From a virus, in IMG/VR virus record IMGVR_UViG_3300045919_000302, positions 1 to 64,000 of that record: a stretch of 64,000 nucleotides of DNA. One strand, given 5' to 3'. Position numbers and translations under genes: made by a program. The stretch's first letter is position 1. Each line of letters opens with the position of its first letter. The notes under the pieces are model-generated. The model worked only from the letters and a program-made list of their open reading frames with translations. It searched no databases and was not told the DNA's origin. Shown piece after piece: positions 29,398 through 55,425 of the stretch.

Positions 29398-32300
29398 CTA
29401 GCCCATCAGGAACGGCGGTGTGAAGTTGCTTTTCCAATCATGCCCTTGATTGGCCTCTTGTTCCAGGGCCTTCTCGGCATTGGCCCGCCACTCTTGTTTC
29501 ATTTCTTCAGAATTACTTTCTATCACGATGGTCGCAGCATCGTCGAGAACCCAAGTGTCTTCATCGGAATTCTGAAACATCTCACGCGAACTGATCGGCA
29601 CATCCAGAATGCCAGAGGCCGCCTCCGTAAGAGTCGTCGTAATCGCGGCCAGAGCATCTGCGATATCTTTGCTGCCGCGTTGCGTTGCCGGCGGGTGGTC
29701 TACTTTTCCCGTCTTCCAGTCCTTCTGGAGTTCGCGAAGCTCCTTGATGAGCGGCGGATAATTGTAGATCTGGATCCGGTTCTCGTAGAGCGCAGTCTTC
29801 ATGACTTCGTAAGGGCCGCCGGCAGGCTCCACCGAAACCACTCGGGTCTGGTAGCCTTGGCCCTTCACGGTCTGGAGAAGATTCGCAGACTGGAATTGAT
29901 CGGCGCTGACCTGCTTGATGAAGAAGCCGTGCTGAGTCAGCTCGTAAATAATCCGGCGGATCTCGGAATACGAGATCTCACCCCCTCGCGGAGCGCGTAC
30001 CTGGAGTACGAAGTCCACATGGATGATCGGGGCCATCTCCTGCTCAGCCTTGCCGAACCTCTGAATGGGCGCGTATCCGGCGACACACCCGACGGCGATA
30101 CCCGTACAGTCCTGGGTTTTTGATAAGTCGAGGTGCAGGTGCCTGGGGGCTTTCGGATGCGCCAGGGGCTCCCAGGAGCCGTCTGGGTGAAGTTTAGCGA
30201 GCTTCTGCCAGTCGAAGCGTCCTGGGATGTCCTGATCCCAGGTCTCCTGGCTGAATGGATGGGTGCGGTTCTTGTCTATGGCCTCGTAGATCTTCTCGCG
30301 TCGGGCGATGAACGGGGTGATGGCCACTGTAGATCTGCCGGCGTGGTCCCGGATCGCGGCGTCAATATCTTCGACGAACGCACCGTGGAACTCGACCGGC
30401 ACCTCGACTACTTCCATGCCTTCCGGGTCCGCCTCACCGGCAGTCATGATCCGGGACATCTTGGTCTCATTCCCGATGGCCACACGGAATTTCTTCCCGG
30501 AGAAACGTTCCTTTGGGACAGCCTCCCAGACCGCCCGCTCCCTGACGAACACAAGGGGATCGCCAACGTACTTCCGGATGAGCTTCTCCGTGAACGCATT
30601 GGGCGTGGTCTTCGAAGAGGCCACCAAGATAACGCCAGGGAGTCTGCCTCGATTCATGAATCGAGACTCCATTCGGCGCTTGATGGCTTCGAAGATCACC
30701 TCGATGTTTTCCTTTACTTCGCTCCGGCCGACTTGCTGGTCACGCTTGTGAAAGAAATTGCCTTCGTCAACGGCTGCACCAATCGCATTCGTACCGACCA
30801 CTTGTCCTGCGGTCGAGGCTCCGGGCGGGAACGTGAACCGGTTTGGAAAGATGATGCCGGCAGCGGCTGTGTTTCTAATCGGGGCGAAGTGCTTCCGGAA
30901 GAACTCGGACTCATCAACGATCGCCCGGATCTTCGATACGAGATTGCGCTCGGCCACGTCTTCTGTGACAGAGACGCAAGGGACTGATATGTAGTCGGTG
31001 CTAGAGATCTGGTAGGTCTCGTGCGGATCTCGCATGCAGTAAACGTCATACGCCATGCGAACACATCCAATGACTGACCCGGTGGAGTTGTGAGTCACCA
31101 GGAAGTTATCCGTCAGGTACAGCCCATTTGGATTGCTGACGGTAATGCAGCGCATCGGCACAACCTCGCCGAGACGTACGTTGCGAACCGTGTTGTAAAG
31201 TTGCGTCGTCTCGCCAAGCGCGTTGACCTTCTTTCGAGCCAGCCTGAATAAATTCTTATTATTTCTGCTGCGGATATAGACAGTGAACGAATCAGAACAC
31301 TCGTAGGTCTTGCTGCCGTCGCCGCTAGTGCGGTCGCGCCCAGCCCTCTTACTAAGGGAAGCATAACAACCCAAAGATCTCGCCAGCCATTGAACATCTC
31401 TTGCAAGTCGCTCGTTCGTGCTAAAGAATTTCACGCTTCCGCATTCTTTGTCTGCGCTGCCGTCGCTATCTAGGAGGCCCTGGAGTATCGCTAGTCTGGC
31501 AACCTTTGGAGCAAACTTATAACACTCTGGAACGAACTTAGATCCAGCATCGGCATTGAAGAGCCCAATCGTGCGCAACTGGAGCCTTAGCTTGTGGACT
31601 GAATCACCCTTGAAGCTGATATCGAAACAGTCCTTGCCGTACTTAGAGAAGTCGGTCACATAGTTGCTGCCAACGCGGTCAGCGATCTCACGATAGAAAT
31701 GAATATCTGCACCGTTGACGGTGATCTTAACCCTTCGATCATTCATCGTTCCATTTCCAAGCATATAGCCGAGCAGGTATGGGTCGATTGTCCTGCCGCC
31801 GATGTCCGTTAGATCTACAGCTTCGGTGATGGGTATTTTGAACAGCTTTTTGCTGCCCAGTTTTTTTGAAAATTCCCTGAGCGTGTGATCATAGACTTGC
31901 CTGGATGTCTTAATGCAATTTGAATTATTCCATGAAAGACATGGGTCGCTCTTATCTCTGCGCCAACCCCCATACCAAAGATGATCGCCGCAAGAGGAGA
32001 CCTCTTCTCCATCGCCCAGCTCGAAGATGTACTCCTGCTCCTGCGTGATCGCGTGTAATTCGCGAATGATGGCAATCGTTCCATCGGGATTGCAGATCTG
32101 GTCTCCCACCTTGAGATCGACGATCTGCCTGAAACCTGTTGGGGTCAGTACGTGGTCTTTGACGCGCTGCTTCTTGCCCCCGCCAAGTGAACCTCCCCAG
32201 ATCGCGGTGTTGTACCCGCCCTCAAAGATCTCGATCAGGTCTTTCTTGATCTCCGGAAAGAGAGTCTTGGTGATCGATCCTAAATAGAAAGGGTTCTCCA

Positions 32301-49854: not shown

Positions 49855-50793
49855 CTATTCCATCCACTCGATCACGAGAATACCGTTCGATCCGGCCGCG
49901 CCAGAAGAAGCTCCTCCAGCGGTATTTACTCCGGCCGCAGTACCACCCGCGCCACCACCGCCGCCGCCGCCACCGCCGCCGCCGCGCCCCATGGTACCAG
50001 CCGTACCGGAAAGGCTTCCGGAGGCGGCTCCACCCAAAGAGTTCGCCGCATTACCGCCGCGACCACCACTGCCGCCGCTCGGGGCAGCAAGACCAAGAAA
50101 CGGGTAATCAGACCCGAGGCCACCGATACCACCTCCGCCGCCGCCTCCGCCGCCGCCGCGACCTGTGGACGGTGTCCCACCATTACCCAGAACTCCTGCC
50201 GTAGGTGCAGTGACTGGGGGGTGAAAAAATCCAGACGTGAGACCTGAACCGTTACCGCCGATAAGTCCTACCTGAGCGGGGTTGCCGCCATTACCGCCGT
50301 TCCCACCGTTTGTGCCGCCGGTCGATCCGCTGCCGTAAGACTTCGTCGATCCCACGCCTCCGGTAGTCGATCCGTTACCGTGAGTTGCTCCGGCTGCGCT
50401 TGCTCCGGACCCGCCCGCCGAACCACCAAAACCAGAGGTCACCGCCGCACGGAAAGATACGAGAGTATCGAACGATGTTGTCCCACCATTTCCGCCTGCG
50501 GCATCATGAATGCCGCCAGACCCACCCGCACCAATTGTAATCGTATAGGTCTGGCCGGGGACAACTTTCACTTTGGCGTGCATCATAGACGCACCACCAC
50601 CTCCACCGCCACCATGGCCACCGCCACCGCCGGCAGCATTGGTGGTGCCGTTGACGCCATTTCCGGCCGAGCCTCCGCCGCCACCGCCGCCTGCGCCCGG
50701 TCTGCCATAGATGGTGACATCCGTTGCCCCGGCTGGAGCAACCCAACTCCCGCTCGTGGTGAAGACGTTTCTAACGACACGAGACCTTGACAT
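49855..50793 (-). CDS. Glycine-rich domain protein (tail-fibre/surface type)
   Basis: FTTSGSWVAPAG..YGRPGAGGGG...GSNGILVIEW. Confidence 0.75.
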   Translation of the reverse strand: MSRSRVVRNVFTTSGSWVAPAGATDVTIYGRPGAGGGGGGGSAGNGVNGTTNAAGGGGGHGGGGGGGASMMHAKVKVVPGQTYTITIGAGGSGGIHDAAGGNGGTTSFDTLVSFRAAVTSGFGGSAGGSGASAAGATHGNGSTTGGVGSTKSYGSGSTGGTNGGNGGNGGNPAQVGLIGGNGSGLTSGFFHPPVTAPTAGVLGNGGTPSTGRGGGGGGGGGGIGGLGSDYPFLGLAAPSGGSGGRGGNAANSLGGAASGSLSGTAGTMGRGGGGGGGGGGGAGGTAAGVNTAGGASSGAAGSNGILVIEWME

Positions 50794-50795
50794 AC

Positions 50796-51734
50796 TTACT
50801 CAGTCCATTCGACGACGACCAGCCCGTCAGACCCAGGGGCTCCGGAACCACCGACTCCGCCGGCTCCACCTGCGCTAAGTCCAGATCCGCCACCGCCACC
50901 ACCGCCGCCGCCACCACCGCCGCGACCGCTTGTGCCAGCCGTGCCGCTCCCGCCGTCCGATCCGGTGACGCCAGTCCCAGAAGCAGAGCCAGCGCCGCCA
51001 CCACCGCCCGCACCGCCAGCTCCGCCCGAAGCGGCGCTCTGACCCATCACAGGATAGGTCTCAGCACTCAGACCCGAAGCCCCGCCTCCGCCCGTTCCGC
51101 CGCCACCGCTGCTTCCGTCGGAGGCCCCCGCGCTAACGCCAGCGATTCCACCGGAGGCCGATACGCCGAAAAAATTGTCCGTCATGGTCGCGCCGGCAGT
51201 CCCGACAGATCCGGCAGCCGACCCGCCCGCACCACCCGCTCCGCCCGCGACTCCGCTTGTAGCAACGCTCGTAACCAGGCCGTAGGACGTGCCGTTGGCC
51301 CCGCCAGCACCAGCCCCGCCGCCACCAGCACCCGTTCCGTCAGAGCCGGCTGCGCCCGTCGCCCCTCCGGTAGCACCTTGGCTGGAAGTCCGACCGAACT
51401 TAACGAGGGTTCCAAAAGAAGAGATCCCGCCTACCCCGCCAGATCCGCCGGGTGTCCCGCCAGAGCCTCCAGCGCCGACCACGATTGCGTAAGTCGTTCC
51501 AGGTGTAACCGCCACGCGAGCGCTGGAAATAGAAGCAGAAGCCCCGCCACCTCCTCCCCCGCCTGCCCCGCCGCCCACGCCGGGCGAGCCCGTAAACCCC
51601 GCGCCACCGGTACCGCCGCCTCCGCCGCCGCCAGCGCCGGGACGACCATAGACCGTAACCTCAACGATCCCGGCTGGGGCGACCCAGTTGTCATTCGCGG
51701 TAAAGACCTTTCGAACGATACGAGGAATCGACAT
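50796..51734 (-). CDS. Glycine-rich domain protein, paralog of 49855..50793
   Basis: FTANDNWVAPAG..YGRPGAGGGG...GSDGLVVVEW. Confidence 0.75.
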   Translation of the reverse strand: MSIPRIVRKVFTANDNWVAPAGIVEVTVYGRPGAGGGGGGGTGGAGFTGSPGVGGGAGGGGGGGASASISSARVAVTPGTTYAIVVGAGGSGGTPGGSGGVGGISSFGTLVKFGRTSSQGATGGATGAAGSDGTGAGGGGAGAGGANGTSYGLVTSVATSGVAGGAGGAGGSAAGSVGTAGATMTDNFFGVSASGGIAGVSAGASDGSSGGGGTGGGGASGLSAETYPVMGQSAASGGAGGAGGGGGAGSASGTGVTGSDGGSGTAGTSGRGGGGGGGGGGGGSGLSAGGAGGVGGSGAPGSDGLVVVEWTE

Positions 51735-52480
51735 CAGATTACCCACCAGTTGACGAGGTCAGAAACAACTTCCCAAGAACCAAAGTTCGATTGGAGAAGC
51801 TTATCTGCCGCAAGACCCTCAATGTTCTCGCTCGCGAACCGCTTGAGCGTGATGGGATTGGTTTGAGCAAGTCCGGAAATATCCTTGATCCGGAACATCC
51901 ACTTGCCGCTGGCTGGATTTGGAAGGTCCAATTCCTTGGATGTGGTTGTATTAACCAGAAGTAAAAAATGAGATCCGGTCACTGAAAACGGGGTGGAGGA
52001 AACAGTGTCAACGGCTTGGGCTGTGTTCCCAGTTGGGCCGGCAGGCCCGGTAGGACCCGTGGGGCCTTGTGCTCCAGTTGCGCCAGCCGCTCCAGCGGGT
52101 CCTTGCGCTCCAGTTGCGCCAGTCGCTCCGGAAGGCCCAGTGGAGCCTGTGGCTCCGGTCGCTCCGGTTGCCCCGGTAGGTCCACGCTCACCAACCGCAG
52201 AAGAGAACGTCTGCTTTCCGTGGGAATCCTCCCCTTCGATTCGAACGCTCGCAGCCTGAATGACCAGTTCATTTTCTTTGAACGGGTACAGTTCTCCCAC
52301 GATCGCGATCTTCCCGGAGAGAGCCATGCCATCGAGAAGCTTTCGTGTCCCGAGATACTCCTCATCAGCGATGTCTGCTGAAGCGAAACCAAGAATTTGA
52401 ATCGTCCGCACCGCAAGCGTAACGCTATGGGTGAGGCGAATGGTCAACGGATTAACCGTGATATTTCCAACCTTATGCAT
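51734..52480 (-). CDS. Collagen-like fibre protein
   Basis: About 19 Gly-X-Y triplets; C-terminal LDLP..IKDISG..TNPITL domain. Confidence 0.8.
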
Positions 52481-52488
52481 TCTCTACC

Positions 52489-53283
52489 TCAGACCAAAGC
52501 GGCGGTGAATACCTGATTCGTTCCCTGGACTTTCAGAGTGTACCCTTCGGCGACTCCGTTCGATGTCAGCGTAACCCACGAGCGACCACCAGCAATCGAA
52601 CTCAGAAGCGTCCCGCCCTGGCCCCCAGCGATGGTGATAATGTTTTGCGCATGGCTCAGGTTGGCCTGCGCCCAAGCATTGACCGCCGTGGCGAAGTCCG
52701 CGAGGGTCGCGGATCCGGAATAGCCGTAAGTCAGGCCATCGGTTTGATGATGAACACCTGCGGTTGCGTTGTCGGCAAATCCGACGGCATACCCGCTGAC
52801 CGCCGCAAAAGACAGAAGATCATTCGCGCTGAGCGTGATTGCGGAGACGGAGATCGCGCCAGCAGAACCGGTGAGCTGGGTCGCGGCTACCGCAGGGGTG
52901 CGAAGGATCCAAGCGTCATTAAGAGCCGGAGAGCCTGGATCCGAGGTCACAATGGGAAGCGCGGCAGGGCCGCCTTTCACTCCACCAGCATCGAGACTCA
53001 CTGGGGAGGTTTGCGCTCCGTGGGTGTCGGTCGAAAGAATGCGAATGCCGGCGGCCTCGATGATCTGCTGATTTTCCATCAGGGGATACAGAGTTCCAGT
53101 GACAGAGAGCTGGCCTGCTTGGGCCATGCCGTCGATCAGCCTGTGCGTGCCGATGTACTCCTCGTCAGCGATGTCCACGCTGGCATATTGGCCGATATGA
53201 ACCACGCGGGTCGAGAGCGTCACGCTGTGGCGAAGAGTGATGGAAACGACCGGACCCGCTACGATATTCTCCAAACGAATCAT
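52489..53283 (-). CDS. Fibre/decoration protein sharing its N-terminal domain with the collagen protein
   Basis: HSVTL...DIADEEY.GT..L.DGMA..G...LYP..EN...D.HG.QT occurs in both. Confidence 0.7.
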   Translation of the reverse strand: MIRLENIVAGPVVSITLRHSVTLSTRVVHIGQYASVDIADEEYIGTHRLIDGMAQAGQLSVTGTLYPLMENQQIIEAAGIRILSTDTHGAQTSPVSLDAGGVKGGPAALPIVTSDPGSPALNDAWILRTPAVAATQLTGSAGAISVSAITLSANDLLSFAAVSGYAVGFADNATAGVHHQTDGLTYGYSGSATLADFATAVNAWAQANLSHAQNIITIAGGQGGTLLSSIAGGRSWVTLTSNGVAEGYTLKVQGTNQVFTAALV

Positions 53284-53386
53284 GAATCCCCCAGAAAGAT
53301 TGCGCGACGACGCAAAGGTTCAAAGCCTGTTTCTTTGACAGTAAGGGGAGGTGTCGAGCGCCGCAATGAAATTGACATTTTGTAAT

Positions 53387-53463
53387 TGGAGGGGAGGAAG
53401 GGAGTTGAACCCTCCTGAAGGGGATTTAGAATCACCCCGCCTAAACCGCTCGGCCACCTCCCC
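53387..53463 (-). tRNA. tRNA with CUA anticodon (amber suppressor), U73 discriminator
   Basis: GGGGAGG TG GCCG AGCGGTTT AGGC GGGGTGA TT-CTA-AA TCCCC TTCAG GAGGG TTCAACT CCCTT CCTCCCC T CCA. Confidence 0.85.
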
Positions 53464-53470
53464 GCCAAAC

Positions 53471-53770
53471 TTACATCAGGGGAAGATCAGACAAAATCTG
53501 ATCGACCTTTTTGTTCGCAAGGACCGCAAAGGCTGTCAAGGATCCTCCGAGATCCGGTTCGCAAAACCGGGCCGATATCTCCCAGAGGACTTTCTTACTG
53601 TATTCCTCAAGGACTTGGATATTCGGGACCTTCAATAAAACGATCGTCTCGTTATACCAAAGCCGGTGCCAGTCCTCGTCCTTCGCCCACTCCGCTACCG
53701 CATGACATGCCTGCGCTGCCATTGACGACCTCTTCAAGTCCGACCTGACCACCACGTAAAGCTTGCTCAT
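53471..53770 (-). CDS. Peptidyl-tRNA hydrolase, Pth2-like
   Basis: KLYVVVRSDL...AAQACHA...IVLLKV...F.EPD....TA. Confidence 0.8.
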   Translation of the reverse strand: MSKLYVVVRSDLKRSSMAAQACHAVAEWAKDEDWHRLWYNETIVLLKVPNIQVLEEYSKKVLWEISARFCEPDLGGSLTAFAVLANKKVDQILSDLPLM

Positions 53771-54050
53771 GTTTTTCCTTCAAGAGATCAATCGTTGCCT
53801 GGACCGCGCTCGCGTCGTGTTCGTTGCCGGGTCGAGGTCTCTCGATCTGATCAATCGTCCGGCCGCGCAACGTGCTTCGGGCGATGTGCTTGTGACGGAA
53901 CTCCCAGCAGTCCCTGGAGAGCTTCGCAACGAGCTTCCATGTGTCTCCGCCCTTACCGCGCTGGGCGTCTTTGAATTGTTTTCTGGTTTCTCGGATCTCG
54001 TGTGCCAGACGTTTGAGATCCTGCTTGAGTTCGTAGATGACTGATTTCAT
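53652..54050 (-). CDS. Basic helical hypothetical protein
   Basis: AGGAG SD; EFRHKHIARSTLRGRTIDQIE. Confidence 0.65.
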   Translation of the reverse strand: MKSVIYELKQDLKRLAHEIRETRKQFKDAQRGKGGDTWKLVAKLSRDCWEFRHKHIARSTLRGRTIDQIERPRPGNEHDASAVQATIDLLKEKHEQALRGGQVGLEEVVNGSAGMSCGSGVGEGRGLAPALV

Positions 54051-54058
54051 TAATTGCT

Positions 54059-54154
54059 CCTAAGCGATTCGCAGTTTGCGAATTGAAATGTGTTTCATGT
54101 TTACGCCGTTCACTTTTCAGTGAACGTTTACCGGATCTGAAACACACGCTTAGG
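54059..54154 (-). ncRNA. Candidate structured 5' leader containing a 12-codon amber-terminated uORF
   Basis: Four perfect stems: CCTAAGCG/CGCTTAGG, TGTGTTTCA/TGAAACACA, CGTTCACT-GAAA-AGTGAACG, ATTCGCA/TGCGAAT. Confidence 0.7.
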
Positions 54155-54182
54155 GCGGCTTAAAAACCTACATAACTTTACC

Positions 54183-54494
54183 CTACCCGTTCGTATCAGC
54201 GGGGCCAACCGGAATCGAAGTCGTGTCAACCGCATTGGCCAACTGACTATCCAGGTCGAACATTGCCAGGAAGGCGATGGCACGACCATTGGCGGCCTCA
54301 GCCGGAGCCACGCCGGTCAGCGCTCCCCGTCCGCCCTGGTTGTCGTCGAGGCTACAGAGGGCGTGCGTAAGCGCCATCAGTATTTTCGATTCCAGGAATG
54401 CGAGCCACTGGTCGTCATCTTTGAAGTGACCCCTGGCTTCATACAGGATCCCGATTGCCGACTTCCCTTTAAAATTCAAACTCGCATTGGTCAT
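54183..54494 (-). CDS. Hypothetical protein, paralog of 54537..54767
   Basis: FKGKSAIGILYEARGHFKDDDQWLAFLE. Confidence 0.6.
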   Translation of the reverse strand: MTNASLNFKGKSAIGILYEARGHFKDDDQWLAFLESKILMALTHALCSLDDNQGGRGALTGVAPAEAANGRAIAFLAMFDLDSQLANAVDTTSIPVGPADTNG

Positions 54495-54784: not shown

Positions 54785-55105
54785 TCAACCAAAGCGATAC
54801 AGCTTTCTTTTCCGCCAAAGAGTGGAGAGATTAATCCCCAAAATTTCGGCAGCCTCTTCCATGGTTCCTGTTTGATTCAAGATGCTCTTGATGTGGTCGC
54901 GCTCGATCTCAGCTAGGGTTCGCAAGTCGCCCTTAGACAGAATGGACGATCCGGCCTCAGCCTGATTGACGATAGTCATGGCCACACGCTCACATGCGTA
55001 TGCAACTATAAGATCATCAGTGTTACTCAGCTTCTTGGTGCGCCTGGACCAATCCACCAGCCAACGAGCGTCATTAACCAATAGTTCTTCCGCAAAGTCT
55101 TTCAT
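54785..55105 (-). CDS. Fis-type (HTH_8) DNA-binding protein
   Basis: TLAEIERDHIKSIL...EAAEILGINLSTLWRK. Confidence 0.85.
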   Translation of the reverse strand: MKDFAEELLVNDARWLVDWSRRTKKLSNTDDLIVAYACERVAMTIVNQAEAGSSILSKGDLRTLAEIERDHIKSILNQTGTMEEAAEILGINLSTLWRKRKLYRFG

Positions 55106-55425
55106 TCCGGCACTGCATCAATCCGACGGTCAGTCCGAAGCACCTTTCGCTCGATGGCCTCGTCTACGGCCTTCGCTCCGTAATAGAGGCGCATCTGCCG
55201 GAGCATGATCGTGGCGTCTGCAATCTCCTCGACCGTGACGTCGAAGCTCCCGCTGTTCTTAGGATTGTAATTCTCAACGGCATCCTTGGCGAGTCGGGCT
55301 GTGCATTCGCTCAACTCCTCGATAGCTTTGATCCGCTGAGTTATCGCACCGAAGTGCTGCATGAACTTGCCTGCGTAGGCATCCAGAGCAAACGTGCTCG
55401 ACGCCATTCCGCATGAAGTTTCCAT
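55102..55425 (-). CDS. MazG-like NTP pyrophosphohydrolase
   Basis: IEELSE...EEIAD..IM..Q. Confidence 0.7.
   Translation of the reverse strand: METSCGMASSTFALDAYAGKFMQHFGAITQRIKAIEELSECTARLAKDAVENYNPKNSGSFDVTVEEIADATIMLRQMRLYYGAKAVDEAIERKVLRTDRRIDAVPE

What the first reader, a model, noticed from the sequence alone, without database searches (positions are those of the whole stretch)
53387..54154. Amber-sensing translation module: structured leader and TAG uORF upstream of ORF, Pth2 and tRNA(CUA)
Seen: a 96-nt leader folds into four perfect stems. The outer stem (CCTAAGCG/CGCTTAGG) sequesters part of the AGGAG SD of 53652..54050. Inside it, uORF 54098-54060 (MKHISIRKLRIA) ends in TAG and continues in frame (GAG CAA TTA ATG) into that gene. 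The operon then encodes a Pth2-like hydrolase and an amber-anticodon tRNA. The arm GGTAAAC-stem-GAAA-stem-GGCGTAAA resembles the P2 arm of c-di-GMP-I riboswitches, but the rest does not match. Inference: a switch that responds to amber readthrough, release-factor status or a ligand and controls ribosome-rescue functions. The uORF has no obvious SD, which is a caveat.
Basis: partly seen in the sequence, partly recalled or inferred. Interest (0 to 1): 0.75.

Follow-up and report, generated by a model that had tools for sequence, protein, structure and literature searches.

The report
Phage leader that senses stop-codon readthrough
A large uncultured phage places a tiny leader gene, in which a UAG stop must be read through before the ribosome reaches a Pro-Pro stalling site, in front of two genes and its only tRNA (a UAG reader); the design recurs in dozens of related phages and most likely acts as a natural, unpublished sensor of stop-codon readthrough.

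Summary
A 96-nt leader forms four perfect stems (-42.6 kcal/mol, z -6.0). Its outer stem pairs with the Shine-Dalgarno (SD) of ORF A (54050..53652). A Pth2-fold gene follows, then the genome's only tRNA (anticodon CUA).

The uORF he chose (54098-54060) lies in a lineage-specific insertion and is probably incidental. The conserved element is just upstream, at 54173..54150: Met-UAG-Val-Phe-Lys-Pro-Pro-UAA. Its Pro-Pro-stop sits on the 5' arm of the SD-hiding stem.

- In 64 of 66 distinct related loci, a UAG followed 3-9 codons later by Pro-Pro lies 45-130 nt before the homologous gene (1% of control windows).
- The peptide is conserved through synonymous changes.
- In 61 of 64 leaders the SD region pairs with sequence beside Pro-Pro.

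Best reading (0.7): only ribosomes that read through UAG reach the stall site, melt the stem and switch on ORF A and the Pth2-like gene.

Nothing was tested at the bench. The phage otherwise uses the standard code. I found no paper describing this. This scan has already reported the same design on DNA of at least 35 other genomes, so this is a further member, of the Lys-Pro-Pro-stop class.

The parts
54183..54494 (-). Upstream ORF (103 aa, no family). Its stop is TAG (54185..54183), in frame with the leader ORF 9 nt downstream.
   Evidence: no Pfam or PHROG hit. One search shows the frame reads through two TAGs into Val-Phe-Lys-Pro-Pro-stop.
54150..54173 (-). Conserved leader ORF: ATG (54173-54171), gating TAG (54170-54168), Val-Phe-Lys (54167-54159), Pro-Pro (54158-54153), TAA (54152-54150).
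   Evidence: Sequence and translation. The same design occurs in 64 of 66 distinct related loci against 1% of control windows. It is the only meaningful instance in the 149-kb genome.
54147..54154 (-). 5' arm of the outer stem P1 (anti-SD). It overlaps the last two bases of the second Pro codon, the TAA and the next 3 nt.
   Evidence: inverted repeat I4, 8/8 complementary.
54059..54066 (-). 3' arm of the outer stem P1. It contains AGG of the SD AGGAG (54061..54057) of ORF A.
54067..54146 (-). Lineage-specific insertion inside P1. It holds three further perfect stems: 54138-54146/54089-54097, 54119-54126/54107-54114 and 54077-54083/54067-54073. It presumably stabilises the closed state.
   Evidence: Most related leaders have one simple hairpin. 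The inner hairpin stem sequence recurs only in L029.
54060..54098 (-). Judged incidental.
   Evidence: No SD, and the ATG is paired in stem P2. It lies in the insertion that other leaders lack.
53652..54050 (-). ORF A (132 aa): conserved ~95-aa core with an invariant Phe-Arg-His-Lys-His-Ile motif, modelled as a helical hairpin plus a third helix, function unknown. The last ~40 residues overlap the next gene and are not conserved.
   Evidence: alignments; model, pLDDT ~95 over residues 1-100; 1,691 representative clusters at E <= 1e-3; no Pfam family.
53471..53770 (-). Pth2-like protein (99 aa).
   Evidence: Pfam PF01981 E 3.5e-7. A profile of the phage family hits solved Pth2 chains at E 4e-5 and 7e-5. 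The model has pLDDT 96.5, and every Foldseek hit at E <= 1e-5 is a Pth2-type structure, TM 0.72-0.83.
53387..53463 (-). tRNA with anticodon CUA (amber suppressor), the only tRNA in the 149-kb genome. It has one bulged U in the anticodon stem, discriminator U and an encoded CCA. The amino acid it carries is undetermined.
53300..53315 (-). Terminator-like hairpin with a T-rich tail after the tRNA; possible end of the transcription unit.
   Evidence: Consensus scan only.

Best explanation
This is a translational attenuator whose input is amber (UAG) readthrough.

Proposed mechanism:
1. A ribosome starts the leader at ATG 54173, or arrives by reading through the in-frame TAG that ends the upstream gene. 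It meets UAG at once.
2. If release factor 1 wins, the ribosome terminates 9 nt or more before the Pro-Pro codons. The outer stem stays closed and the SD of ORF A stays paired (OFF).
3. If the phage's tRNA(CUA) decodes UAG, the ribosome translates Val-Phe-Lys-Pro-Pro and pauses with Pro-Pro in the exit tunnel and UAA in the A site. This is a context known to hinder termination.
4. The paused ribosome sits exactly on the 5' arm of the stem. It frees the SD, so ORF A and the overlapping Pth2-like gene are translated (ON).

Shown here: the sequence anatomy, its conservation, the pairing and the gene linkage. Inferred: readthrough, stalling, the direction of regulation and the physiological purpose.

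Most likely purpose: to make the ORF A/Pth2-like pair only when, and in proportion as, suppression is active. That pair is a single functional unit that is fused in some phages.
For: 1. Conservation of the sensor. Of 78 related loci with enough upstream DNA, 76 (64 of 66 distinct) carry TAG, then 2-9 codons (3-9 in the 58 distinct leaders), then two Pro codons, 45-130 nt before the ORF A start. Only 1.0% of 2,729 control windows from the same loci do.
2. Independent check. Two loci found later by a different route (L090, L091) show the same design.
3. Peptide-level selection. Val-Phe-Lys-Pro-Pro-stop is identical in 10 distinct loci with synonymous codon differences. A second class carries Arg-Gly/Ala-Pro-Pro.
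4. Start of the leader. An ATG lies 0-7 sense codons before the first TAG in 47 distinct leaders, with 1 TAG (22 leaders) or 2 TAGs (24) before the last Pro-Pro. An SD was seen by eye in the first eight loci.
5. Readthrough-friendly context. The base after TAG is a purine in 54 of 58 leaders.
6. SD sequestration:
   - In 61 of 64 distinct leaders, at least 5 of 13 SD-region bases pair with the first 35 nt after the Pro-Pro start (mean 9.1 against 4.2 for shuffled heads).
   - The mean z of the fold is -4.1, and stem sequences differ between loci.
   - Compared with other SD-bearing genes in the same loci, p is 5e-6 for SD pairing and 8e-12 for z.
7. Geometry in the window. P1's 5' arm (54154-54147) overlaps the second Pro codon and the TAA. 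The TAG lies 9 nt before the Pro-Pro codons.
8. Linkage:
   - A Pth2-like gene follows in 66 of 67 loci with enough downstream DNA.
   - A tRNA(CUA) lies in 33 of 46 distinct loci with at least 1.2 kb downstream. No other suppressor anticodon occurs in those 46 loci.
9. Literature:
   - A C-terminal Pro-Pro motif interferes with termination and arrests ribosomes in all contexts tested (PMC3834316).
   - RAPP and RGPP are robust arrest cores (PMC12992588, PMC10951233).
Against: - There is no experiment of any kind. Readthrough, stalling and induction are all inferred.
- The SD of the window's leader ORF is weak (AGGG, 7 nt before the ATG), and the ORF is a bare start-stop if not read through.
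- Pro-Pro codons (CCUCC in many loci) double as the anti-SD, so part of their conservation could be RNA-level. This does not explain CCA/CCG/CCC variants, the in-frame TAG or the conserved Val-Phe-Lys.
- Shuffled controls pair the SD fairly often (49% reach the threshold).
- This genome shows no need for suppression. TAG ends 32 of 210 crude gene calls, there is no excess of long readthrough extensions, and no in-frame TAG was found in tested genes. The purpose is therefore unclear.
- The amino acid carried by the tRNA and its host synthetase are unknown.
- The catalytic Lys of archaeal Pth2 aligns to Gln/Ser in the phage family, so hydrolase activity is not assured.
Confidence: 0.7

Rival explanations
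1. The hardware is the same, but the sensed variable is release factor 1 activity rather than supply of the suppressor tRNA. Examples are host RF1 depletion, or inhibition by a phage factor. The leader would then report termination efficiency at UAG, as the in-frame UGA of prfB reports RF2.
For: Readthrough is by nature a competition between RF1 and tRNA(CUA), so the anatomy fits equally well. The final stop of the leader is TAA or TGA in 33 of 36 stop-terminated leaders, so release there does not depend on RF1 alone.
Against: A tRNA(CUA) is linked to the module in most loci, which points to the tRNA as the variable the phage itself controls. No release-factor gene or known RF1 inhibitor was seen in the window.
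Confidence: 0.12
2. There is no sensing. The mini-ORF simply terminates at TAG and serves translational coupling or reinitiation. The Pro-Pro codons are conserved only as the anti-SD strand, and the hairpin sets a low constitutive translation level.
For: CCUCC is a perfect anti-SD and is the commonest Pro-Pro spelling. Shuffled heads pair the SD in 49% of trials. The window's leader ORF is a bare start-stop.
Against: This reading does not explain several findings:
- The stop is always TAG, and never TAA or TGA, in 76 of 78 loci.
- The frame from TAG to Pro-Pro is kept open.
- Val-Phe-Lys and Arg-Gly are conserved as amino acids through synonymous changes.
- CCA/CCG/CCC spellings that are poor anti-SDs persist.
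- An in-frame stop follows Pro-Pro directly in 36 of 58 leaders.
Confidence: 0.08
3. One reading: either the inner uORF (54098-54060) is the amber-sensing ORF or gives an N-terminally extended ORF A by readthrough, or the four-stem RNA is a ligand-binding riboswitch.
For: The uORF is in frame with ORF A through a TAG, and the RNA is unusually stable.
Against: - The uORF has no SD, and its ATG is paired in a 9-bp stem.
- The insertion that carries it is absent from most related leaders.
- Its TAG is dictated by complementarity to the Pro-stop bases.
- No Rfam family matches at E <= 10.
- All 32 base pairs are Watson-Crick with no conserved loops across relatives.
Confidence: 0.03
4. The element acts on transcription or DNA. 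It would be either a leader-peptide-controlled terminator or Rho site that governs read-on into the tRNA gene, or nested DNA palindromes bound by a protein.
For: All stems are perfect Watson-Crick, as DNA palindromes would be. The tRNA lies downstream in the same orientation, so translation of ORF A could protect the transcript from Rho; engineered UAG leaders work this way (PMC6412442).
Against: No U-tract follows any sense-strand hairpin; the 3' arm runs straight into the SD and ATG. The feature conserved across relatives is SD pairing, not a palindrome sequence. The element is unique in the genome.
Confidence: 0.05

Closest known systems
[quoted passage not shown]
   Same: Two prolines sit immediately before a stop codon, exactly as in the window's leader and in 36 of 58 distinct related leaders. 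The motif is known to hinder release-factor action and hold the ribosome with peptidyl-prolyl-tRNA in the P site.
   Different: In E. coli it is an accidental or engineered feature that triggers tmRNA tagging. Here it is placed on the 5' arm of an SD-hiding stem and can be reached only after UAG readthrough.
RAPP/RGPP-type regulatory arrest peptides (ApdA, ApdP, ApcA, Streptomyces uORFs; SecM has RAG-P) - PMC7897499, PMC10951233, PMC12992588
   Same: A short upstream ORF ends in x-x-Pro-Pro and regulates the next gene by ribosome arrest. About 20 related phage leaders carry Arg-Gly-Pro-Pro or Arg-Ala-Pro-Pro itself.
   Different: The window's core is Lys-Pro-Pro-stop, not Arg-Ala/Gly-Pro-Pro. 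Known members monitor protein export or insertion through a long N-terminal part. These leaders are 7-20 codons long and are gated by an in-frame stop codon.
Leader-peptide translational attenuators that open an SD-sequestering hairpin (ermC/ermB, cat/cmlA, secM-secA, mifM-yidC2); established knowledge, PMC5118997 for erm
   Same: A stalled ribosome on a short leader melts a hairpin that hides the SD of the downstream gene.
   Different: In those systems the trigger is a drug or the export status. Here the trigger is decoding of a stop codon by a suppressor tRNA.
prfB (RF2) autoregulation through an in-frame UGA, and amino-acid operon leaders (trp, his, pheL) that sense charged tRNA (own knowledge; PMC3082878 for pheL)
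   Same: The fate of a ribosome at one or a few diagnostic codons reports the activity of a translation factor or the supply of a tRNA.
   Different: prfB uses a +1 frameshift, and no frameshift site is present here. The trp-type leaders stall when the tRNA is lacking and act on transcription. Here, lack of the tRNA gives termination and the output is translational.
Engineered switches with a TAG inserted in a leader peptide (review PMC6412442, section 6)
   Same: Expression of the downstream gene requires translation of a leader beyond an inserted UAG by a suppressor tRNA.
   Different: Those switches are synthetic, built on the tna/trp leaders, and act through Rho-dependent transcription termination. 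This one is natural, phage-borne and acts on an SD hairpin.

Membership tests
Leader-peptide translational attenuator (erm/cat/SecM type) | Short ORF with its own start upstream of the regulated gene | tested here: met
   ATG 54173 lies 7 nt after AGGG. In 47 distinct relatives an ATG lies 0-7 sense codons before the first TAG.
Leader-peptide translational attenuator (erm/cat/SecM type) | Hairpin whose 3' arm hides the SD of the downstream gene and whose 5' arm lies under the stalled ribosome | tested here: met
   P1 arms are 54154-54147 and 54066-54059. 61 of 64 distinct leaders show the same relation.
Leader-peptide translational attenuator (erm/cat/SecM type) | Conditional ribosome stalling that induces the downstream gene | not testable with these tools
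   Needs toeprinting or reporter assays.
C-terminal Pro-Pro termination-stall motif | Two Pro codons directly followed by a stop codon | tested here: met
   CCG CCC TAA at 54158-54150. 36 of 58 distinct relatives have the same.
RAPP/RGPP arrest peptides | Arg-Ala/Gly-Pro-Pro core | tested here: not met
   The window has Phe-Lys-Pro-Pro. The core is present in about 20 related loci, so the wider phage family straddles both motif types.
Pth2 peptidyl-tRNA hydrolase (PF01981) | Sequence match above the curated threshold | tested here: met
   30.9 bits against a 23-bit cut-off, covering profile positions 2-72 of 115. The family profile hits solved Pth2 chains at E 4e-5.
Pth2 peptidyl-tRNA hydrolase (PF01981) | Pth2 fold | tested here: met
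   The model has pLDDT 96.5. Foldseek hits: 2zv3 (E 8e-8, TM 0.77), 3erj (TM 0.83), 1q7s (TM 0.80) and 1xty (TM 0.81).
Pth2 peptidyl-tRNA hydrolase (PF01981) | Catalytic Lys of the Gly-Lys motif (recalled from work on Sulfolobus Pth2) | tested here: inconclusive
   In HMMER alignments to solved Pth2 chains the Gly-Lys position falls opposite Ser in the window (1rzw, 1wn2) and opposite Gln in the phage family consensus (2zv3). These are short, gapped alignments. The downstream acidic Glu-Pro-Asp and Thr are invariant or nearly so.
tRNA (Rfam RF00005), amber suppressor | Cloverleaf above the gathering score, with anticodon CUA | tested here: met
   41.6 bits against 29. ARAGORN reads anticodon cta. 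Aminoacylation and identity are not testable here.
c-di-GMP-I riboswitch (RF01051) or any Rfam cis-regulator | Covariance-model match in the leader | tested here: not met
   No match at the gathering score or at E <= 10 over 53350-54250.
TAG-recoded (code 15) phage | Many genes with in-frame TAG; TAG not used as a stop | tested here: not met
   The standard code gives 94% coding. TAG ends 32 of 210 crude gene calls. Long extensions after TAG are no commoner than after TGA or TAA. The candidate junction at 29400 separates terminase from portal.
prfB-type autoregulatory recoding | Programmed frameshift site at the in-frame stop | tested here: not met
   The leader stays in one frame from ATG through TAG to Pro-Pro-TAA.

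The most novel reading that the evidence does not exclude
The module is a self-contained feedback circuit for partial genetic-code change. The leader measures suppression at UAG. Its output is the ORF A/Pth2-like enzyme, whose helical arm may grip a tRNA. That enzyme then acts back on the suppressor tRNA or on the peptidyl-tRNAs and stalled ribosomes that readthrough creates. In this way the phage could hold readthrough at a set point, or commit the infected cell to a readthrough state by protecting the downstream tRNA transcript. It would be the first natural regulator known to monitor the meaning of a codon.
Probability: 0.25. Interest if true: 0.92.

Novelty: new variant of a known kind. 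Interest (0 to 1): 0.8.

Why it matters
Leader peptides are known to sense drugs, amino-acid supply and protein export. None is known in nature to sense whether a stop codon is being read as sense.

If the model holds, it would matter in four ways:
- Large phages that carry a suppressor tRNA would be shown to monitor its activity and tie a conserved two-protein unit to it. That unit belongs to an unannotated family of at least 1,691 sequence clusters, paired with a Pth2-fold protein.
- It bears on how phages move from the standard code to stop-codon recoding. This genome is a standard-code phage with a lone suppressor, the proposed intermediate stage (bioRxiv 10.1101/2021.08.26.457843).
- It gives a compact natural part for genetic-code-expansion circuits.
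- It makes the question directly testable with simple reporters.

Tried and rejected
- Rfam search of the whole window and a sensitive search of the leader found nothing but the tRNA.
- DNA similarity search of the locus against GenBank phages found no match. tblastn of three ORF A family members against the same 50,697 records also found none, so no cultured phage with the module is at hand.
- Copies of the leader or its pieces elsewhere in the genome: none.
- The only other genome match to the leader-ORF pattern (139596, + strand) is antisense inside a large gene and fits the roughly 0.6 expected by chance.
- Genome-wide TAG recoding was rejected.
- Function of ORF A from structure gave no assignment:
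  - Foldseek found no hit at E <= 0.001.
  - VIA-align gave only generic helical hairpins (best Z 9.5, below the level that means anything for helical proteins).
  - The tRNA-binding arms of seryl- and valyl-tRNA synthetases are among the hits. This is a lead only.
- Identity of the suppressor tRNA: the 46 distinct tRNA(CUA) genes have diverse acceptor stems and discriminators. In-frame TAGs in relatives' Pth2-like genes align to varied residues, though to Gln in the window at one site. No assignment was made.
- A complex prediction for ORF A with the Pth2-like protein could not be run. The service was unreachable in all attempts, so there is no verdict.
- P0002's contig could not be read.
- A programmed frameshift joining ORF A to the Pth2-like gene in the window was considered, because the two frames differ by one base at a run of five A. 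No evidence for it was found.
Full report
**Setting.** The window is the first 64 kb of a complete 149,291-bp virus record with direct terminal repeats. The record has 55% G+C and most genes lie on the minus strand. All features below are on the minus strand.

**The observation.**
- The RNA from 54160 to 54045 folds at -42.6 kcal/mol, against -23.0 +/- 3.3 for shuffles (z -6.0).
- It contains four perfect inverted repeats of 8, 9, 8 and 7 bp.
- The outer stem pairs 54154-54147 with 54066-54059, which includes AGG of the AGGAG SD of ORF A (54050..53652).
- The next gene (53770..53471) matches Pfam PTH2 above threshold. A profile of its phage family hits solved Pth2 chains.
- Its model (pLDDT 96.5) has Pth2-type structures as all of its Foldseek hits at E <= 1e-5, with TM 0.72-0.83.
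- The tRNA at 53463..53387 has anticodon CUA and scores 41.6 bits on Rfam tRNA.
- It is the only tRNA in the whole genome.
- No Rfam family, c-di-GMP-I included, matches the leader even at E <= 10.

**What relatives show.**
- ORF A has no Pfam or PHROG family.
- It belongs to a large unannotated family: 1,691 representative clusters at E <= 1e-3 and 962 at E <= 1e-10.
- The family has an invariant Phe-Arg-His-Lys-His-Ile motif.
- I fetched 7 viral loci and 80 metagenomic loci that encode relatives.
  - a short ORF with its own SD and ATG;
  - a TAG after 0-7 sense codons;
  - then 3-9 codons ending in Pro-Pro;
  - usually a TAA or TGA straight after;
  - all of this abutting a hairpin whose 3' arm holds the SD of ORF A.
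- In the window this ORF is ATG-TAG-GTT-TTT-AAG-CCG-CCC-TAA at 54173..54150.

**Statistics on the leader ORF.**
- TAG, 2-9 open codons (3-9 in the 58 distinct leaders) and two Pro codons lie 45-130 nt before the ORF A start in 76 of 78 loci with enough upstream DNA.
- That is 64 of 66 distinct loci, against 1.0% of 2,729 control windows from the same loci.
- The two exceptions still have a TAG-containing leader of a variant form.
- The 58 distinct leaders fall into two classes:
  - Lys/Arg-Pro-Pro followed directly by a stop (36 leaders). Val-Phe-Lys-Pro-Pro-stop is identical in the window and nine other loci, but spelled with different synonymous codons.
  - Arg-Gly/Ala/Ser-Pro-Pro followed by Tyr or other codons.
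- The base after TAG is a purine in 54 of 58.
- Leaders carry one TAG (22) or two TAGs (24) before the last Pro-Pro. Some have a third TAG after it.

**Statistics on the hairpin.**
- In 61 of 64 distinct leaders the MFE fold pairs at least 5 of the 13 SD-region bases with the first 35 nt after the Pro-Pro start.
- The mean is 9.1 bases, against 4.2 for shuffled heads. The mean z of the fold is -4.1.
- Other SD-bearing genes of the same loci are much less structured (SD pairing p 5e-6, z-score p 8e-12).
- The stem sequences differ between loci while the pairing is kept.

**An independent check.** Two loci found later by a different route are natural ORF A-Pth2 fusions, L090 and L091. Both have the same leader and SD hairpin, and L090 has a tRNA(CUA) directly after the gene.

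**Linkage.**
- A Pth2-like gene follows ORF A in 66 of 67 loci with at least 700 nt downstream.
- A tRNA(CUA) lies on the same strand in 33 of 46 distinct loci with at least 1.2 kb downstream. No other suppressor anticodon occurs in those 46 loci.
- ORF A and the Pth2-like protein form one functional unit, because in other phages they are physically joined:
  - They are fused in one table-11 reading frame in L090 and L091 (hhalign probability 99.5% and 99.2%).
  - They are joined in frame by a TAG, with no separate start for the Pth2 part, in L045 and L072.
- In about ten loci the Pth2-like gene itself contains an in-frame TAG. Its synthesis there needs suppression directly.

**Mechanism.** The anatomy is that of a simple leader-peptide translational attenuator.
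- With TAG in the A site, the leading edge of the ribosome reaches only about the Pro-Pro codons, because the spacer is never shorter than three codons. The stem therefore stays shut.
- With the second Pro codon in the P site and the stop in the A site, the ribosome covers the whole 5' arm of P1 (54154-54147) and the start of the next stem.
- A C-terminal Pro-Pro motif is documented to interfere with termination and to arrest ribosomes in all contexts tested, leaving peptidyl-prolyl-tRNA in the P site (PMC3834316).
- RAPP and RGPP are robust, EF-P-refractory arrest cores used by regulatory uORFs (PMC12992588, PMC10951233, PMC7897499).
- I therefore read the element as follows: translation of ORF A and the Pth2-like gene is unlocked only when UAG is decoded.
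- Two or three UAGs in series would sharpen the response.
- In the window the upstream gene (54494..54183) also ends in TAG, in frame with the leader. The leader can thus be entered either at its own ATG (one UAG to pass) or by readthrough from upstream (two UAGs).
- Readthrough, stalling and induction are all inferred, not shown.

- Most related leaders measure 57-80 nt from Pro-Pro to start and hold a single hairpin. The window's measures 108 nt because three extra stems are inserted inside P1.
- The uORF lies in that insertion. Its ATG is paired and it lacks an SD.
- Its TAG follows from complementarity of the SD arm to the Pro-stop bases.
- It is best regarded as incidental, and the insertion probably just stabilises the OFF state.
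- One inner stem sequence recurs in L029 only.

**What the switch is for.**
- This genome fits the standard code:
  - 94% coding by a crude gene call.
  - TAG ends 32 of 210 genes.
  - There is no excess of long extensions after TAG.
  - The in-frame junction at 29400 separates terminase from portal.
- The phage is thus of the kind proposed as an intermediate on the way to recoding: standard code plus an acquired suppressor (bioRxiv 10.1101/2021.08.26.457843). That paper mentions neither a leader nor a hydrolase.
- The ORF A model is confident (pLDDT about 95 over residues 1-100). It is a basic helical hairpin with only generic structural neighbours, among them the tRNA-binding arms of seryl- and valyl-tRNA synthetases. 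That is a lead, not a finding.
- In short, gapped alignments, the catalytic Lys recalled for archaeal Pth2 falls opposite Gln or Ser in the phage family. Other positions, namely Gln, His, Glu-Pro-Asp and Thr, are invariant or nearly so.
- The most economical purpose is that the pair deals with the products of readthrough, namely peptidyl-tRNA and stalled ribosomes. Alternatively it could act on the suppressor tRNA itself, which would give feedback. This is speculation.
- Relatives place the module among tRNA genes, a tmRNA gene, RtcB and RNA ligase.

**Novelty.**
- I found no description of a natural stop-codon-gated leader.
- The nearest published thing is the engineered insertion of TAG into tna/trp leaders (PMC6412442).
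- No ORF A relative occurs in 50,697 GenBank phage records, which may explain the silence.
- This scan has already reported the same design on DNA of at least 35 other genomes. Those notes agree with my reading, which I reached before looking them up, but they are not independent evidence.
- This locus adds several things:
  - a member of the Lys-Pro-Pro-stop (termination-stall) class;
  - a bare start-stop entry;
  - an in-frame TAG-terminated upstream gene;
  - an enlarged stem;
  - a genome in which the suppressor is the only tRNA.

Noticed in passing
window 53387-53463 (-): The amber suppressor is the only tRNA gene in the 149-kb genome. It has a bulged U in the anticodon stem, a 3-bp D stem like those I recall from Ser/Leu/Tyr tRNAs but a short variable loop, discriminator U and an encoded CCA. 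The amino acid it carries is unknown.
   Followed up: partly
window 53652-53770 (-): ORF A runs 119 nt into the Pth2-like gene in another frame. The conserved core of ORF A ends just where the Pth2-like ATG lies. The two frames differ by one base next to a run of five A. In other phages the two proteins are fused or joined by a TAG. No evidence of frameshifting was sought beyond inspection.
   Followed up: partly
L090:1501-2103, L091:1128-1727; L045 and L072 (ORF A stop TAG followed in frame by the Pth2 domain): Natural single-chain fusions of ORF A with the Pth2-like domain occur, as do TAG-joined versions in which the Pth2 part has no start codon of its own.
   Followed up: yes
L002, L008/L076, L018, L020, L021, L033, L044, L048, L060, L069, L079 (Pth2-like genes): In-frame TAG codons lie inside the Pth2-like coding sequence of relatives. 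At one such site the window has Gln. These relatives may be partly or fully TAG-recoded phages.
   Followed up: partly
L005:807-1133, L006:1108-1439: ARAGORN predicts phage-borne tmRNA genes, and several tRNA genes, 1.5-2 kb upstream of the module. RtcB with an intein lies directly upstream in L003. An RNA ligase with an HNH domain lies directly downstream in L090.
   Followed up: partly
L010/L011:1381-1410: The closest relatives have a sigma-70-like promoter (TTGACA, 17 nt, CATAAT) immediately before the leader ORF. No such promoter was found before the window's leader, which seems to be co-transcribed with upstream genes.
   Followed up: no
window 54107-54126 (-) and L029:1389-1412: The inner hairpin stem of the window's leader (7-bp stem GTTCAC.../...GTGAAC type) recurs in only one other leader (L029). 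This may be chance or a shared insertion.
   Followed up: partly
window 51734-53283 (-): Two adjacent paralogous tail-fibre-like genes lie in the same frame, separated by a TAG and one codon. They share an N-terminal domain, and the second has collagen repeats. Each has its own start, so this was not taken as readthrough.
   Followed up: partly
window 54785-55425 (-): Upstream of the module lie a small Fis-type HTH protein (PF02954, E 1e-10) and a MazG-like NTP pyrophosphohydrolase (phrog_2245).
   Followed up: no
window 49855-51746: A 64% G+C stretch encodes glycine-rich repetitive ORFs, with long open frames on both strands. It has the lowest folding energies in the genome.
   Followed up: no
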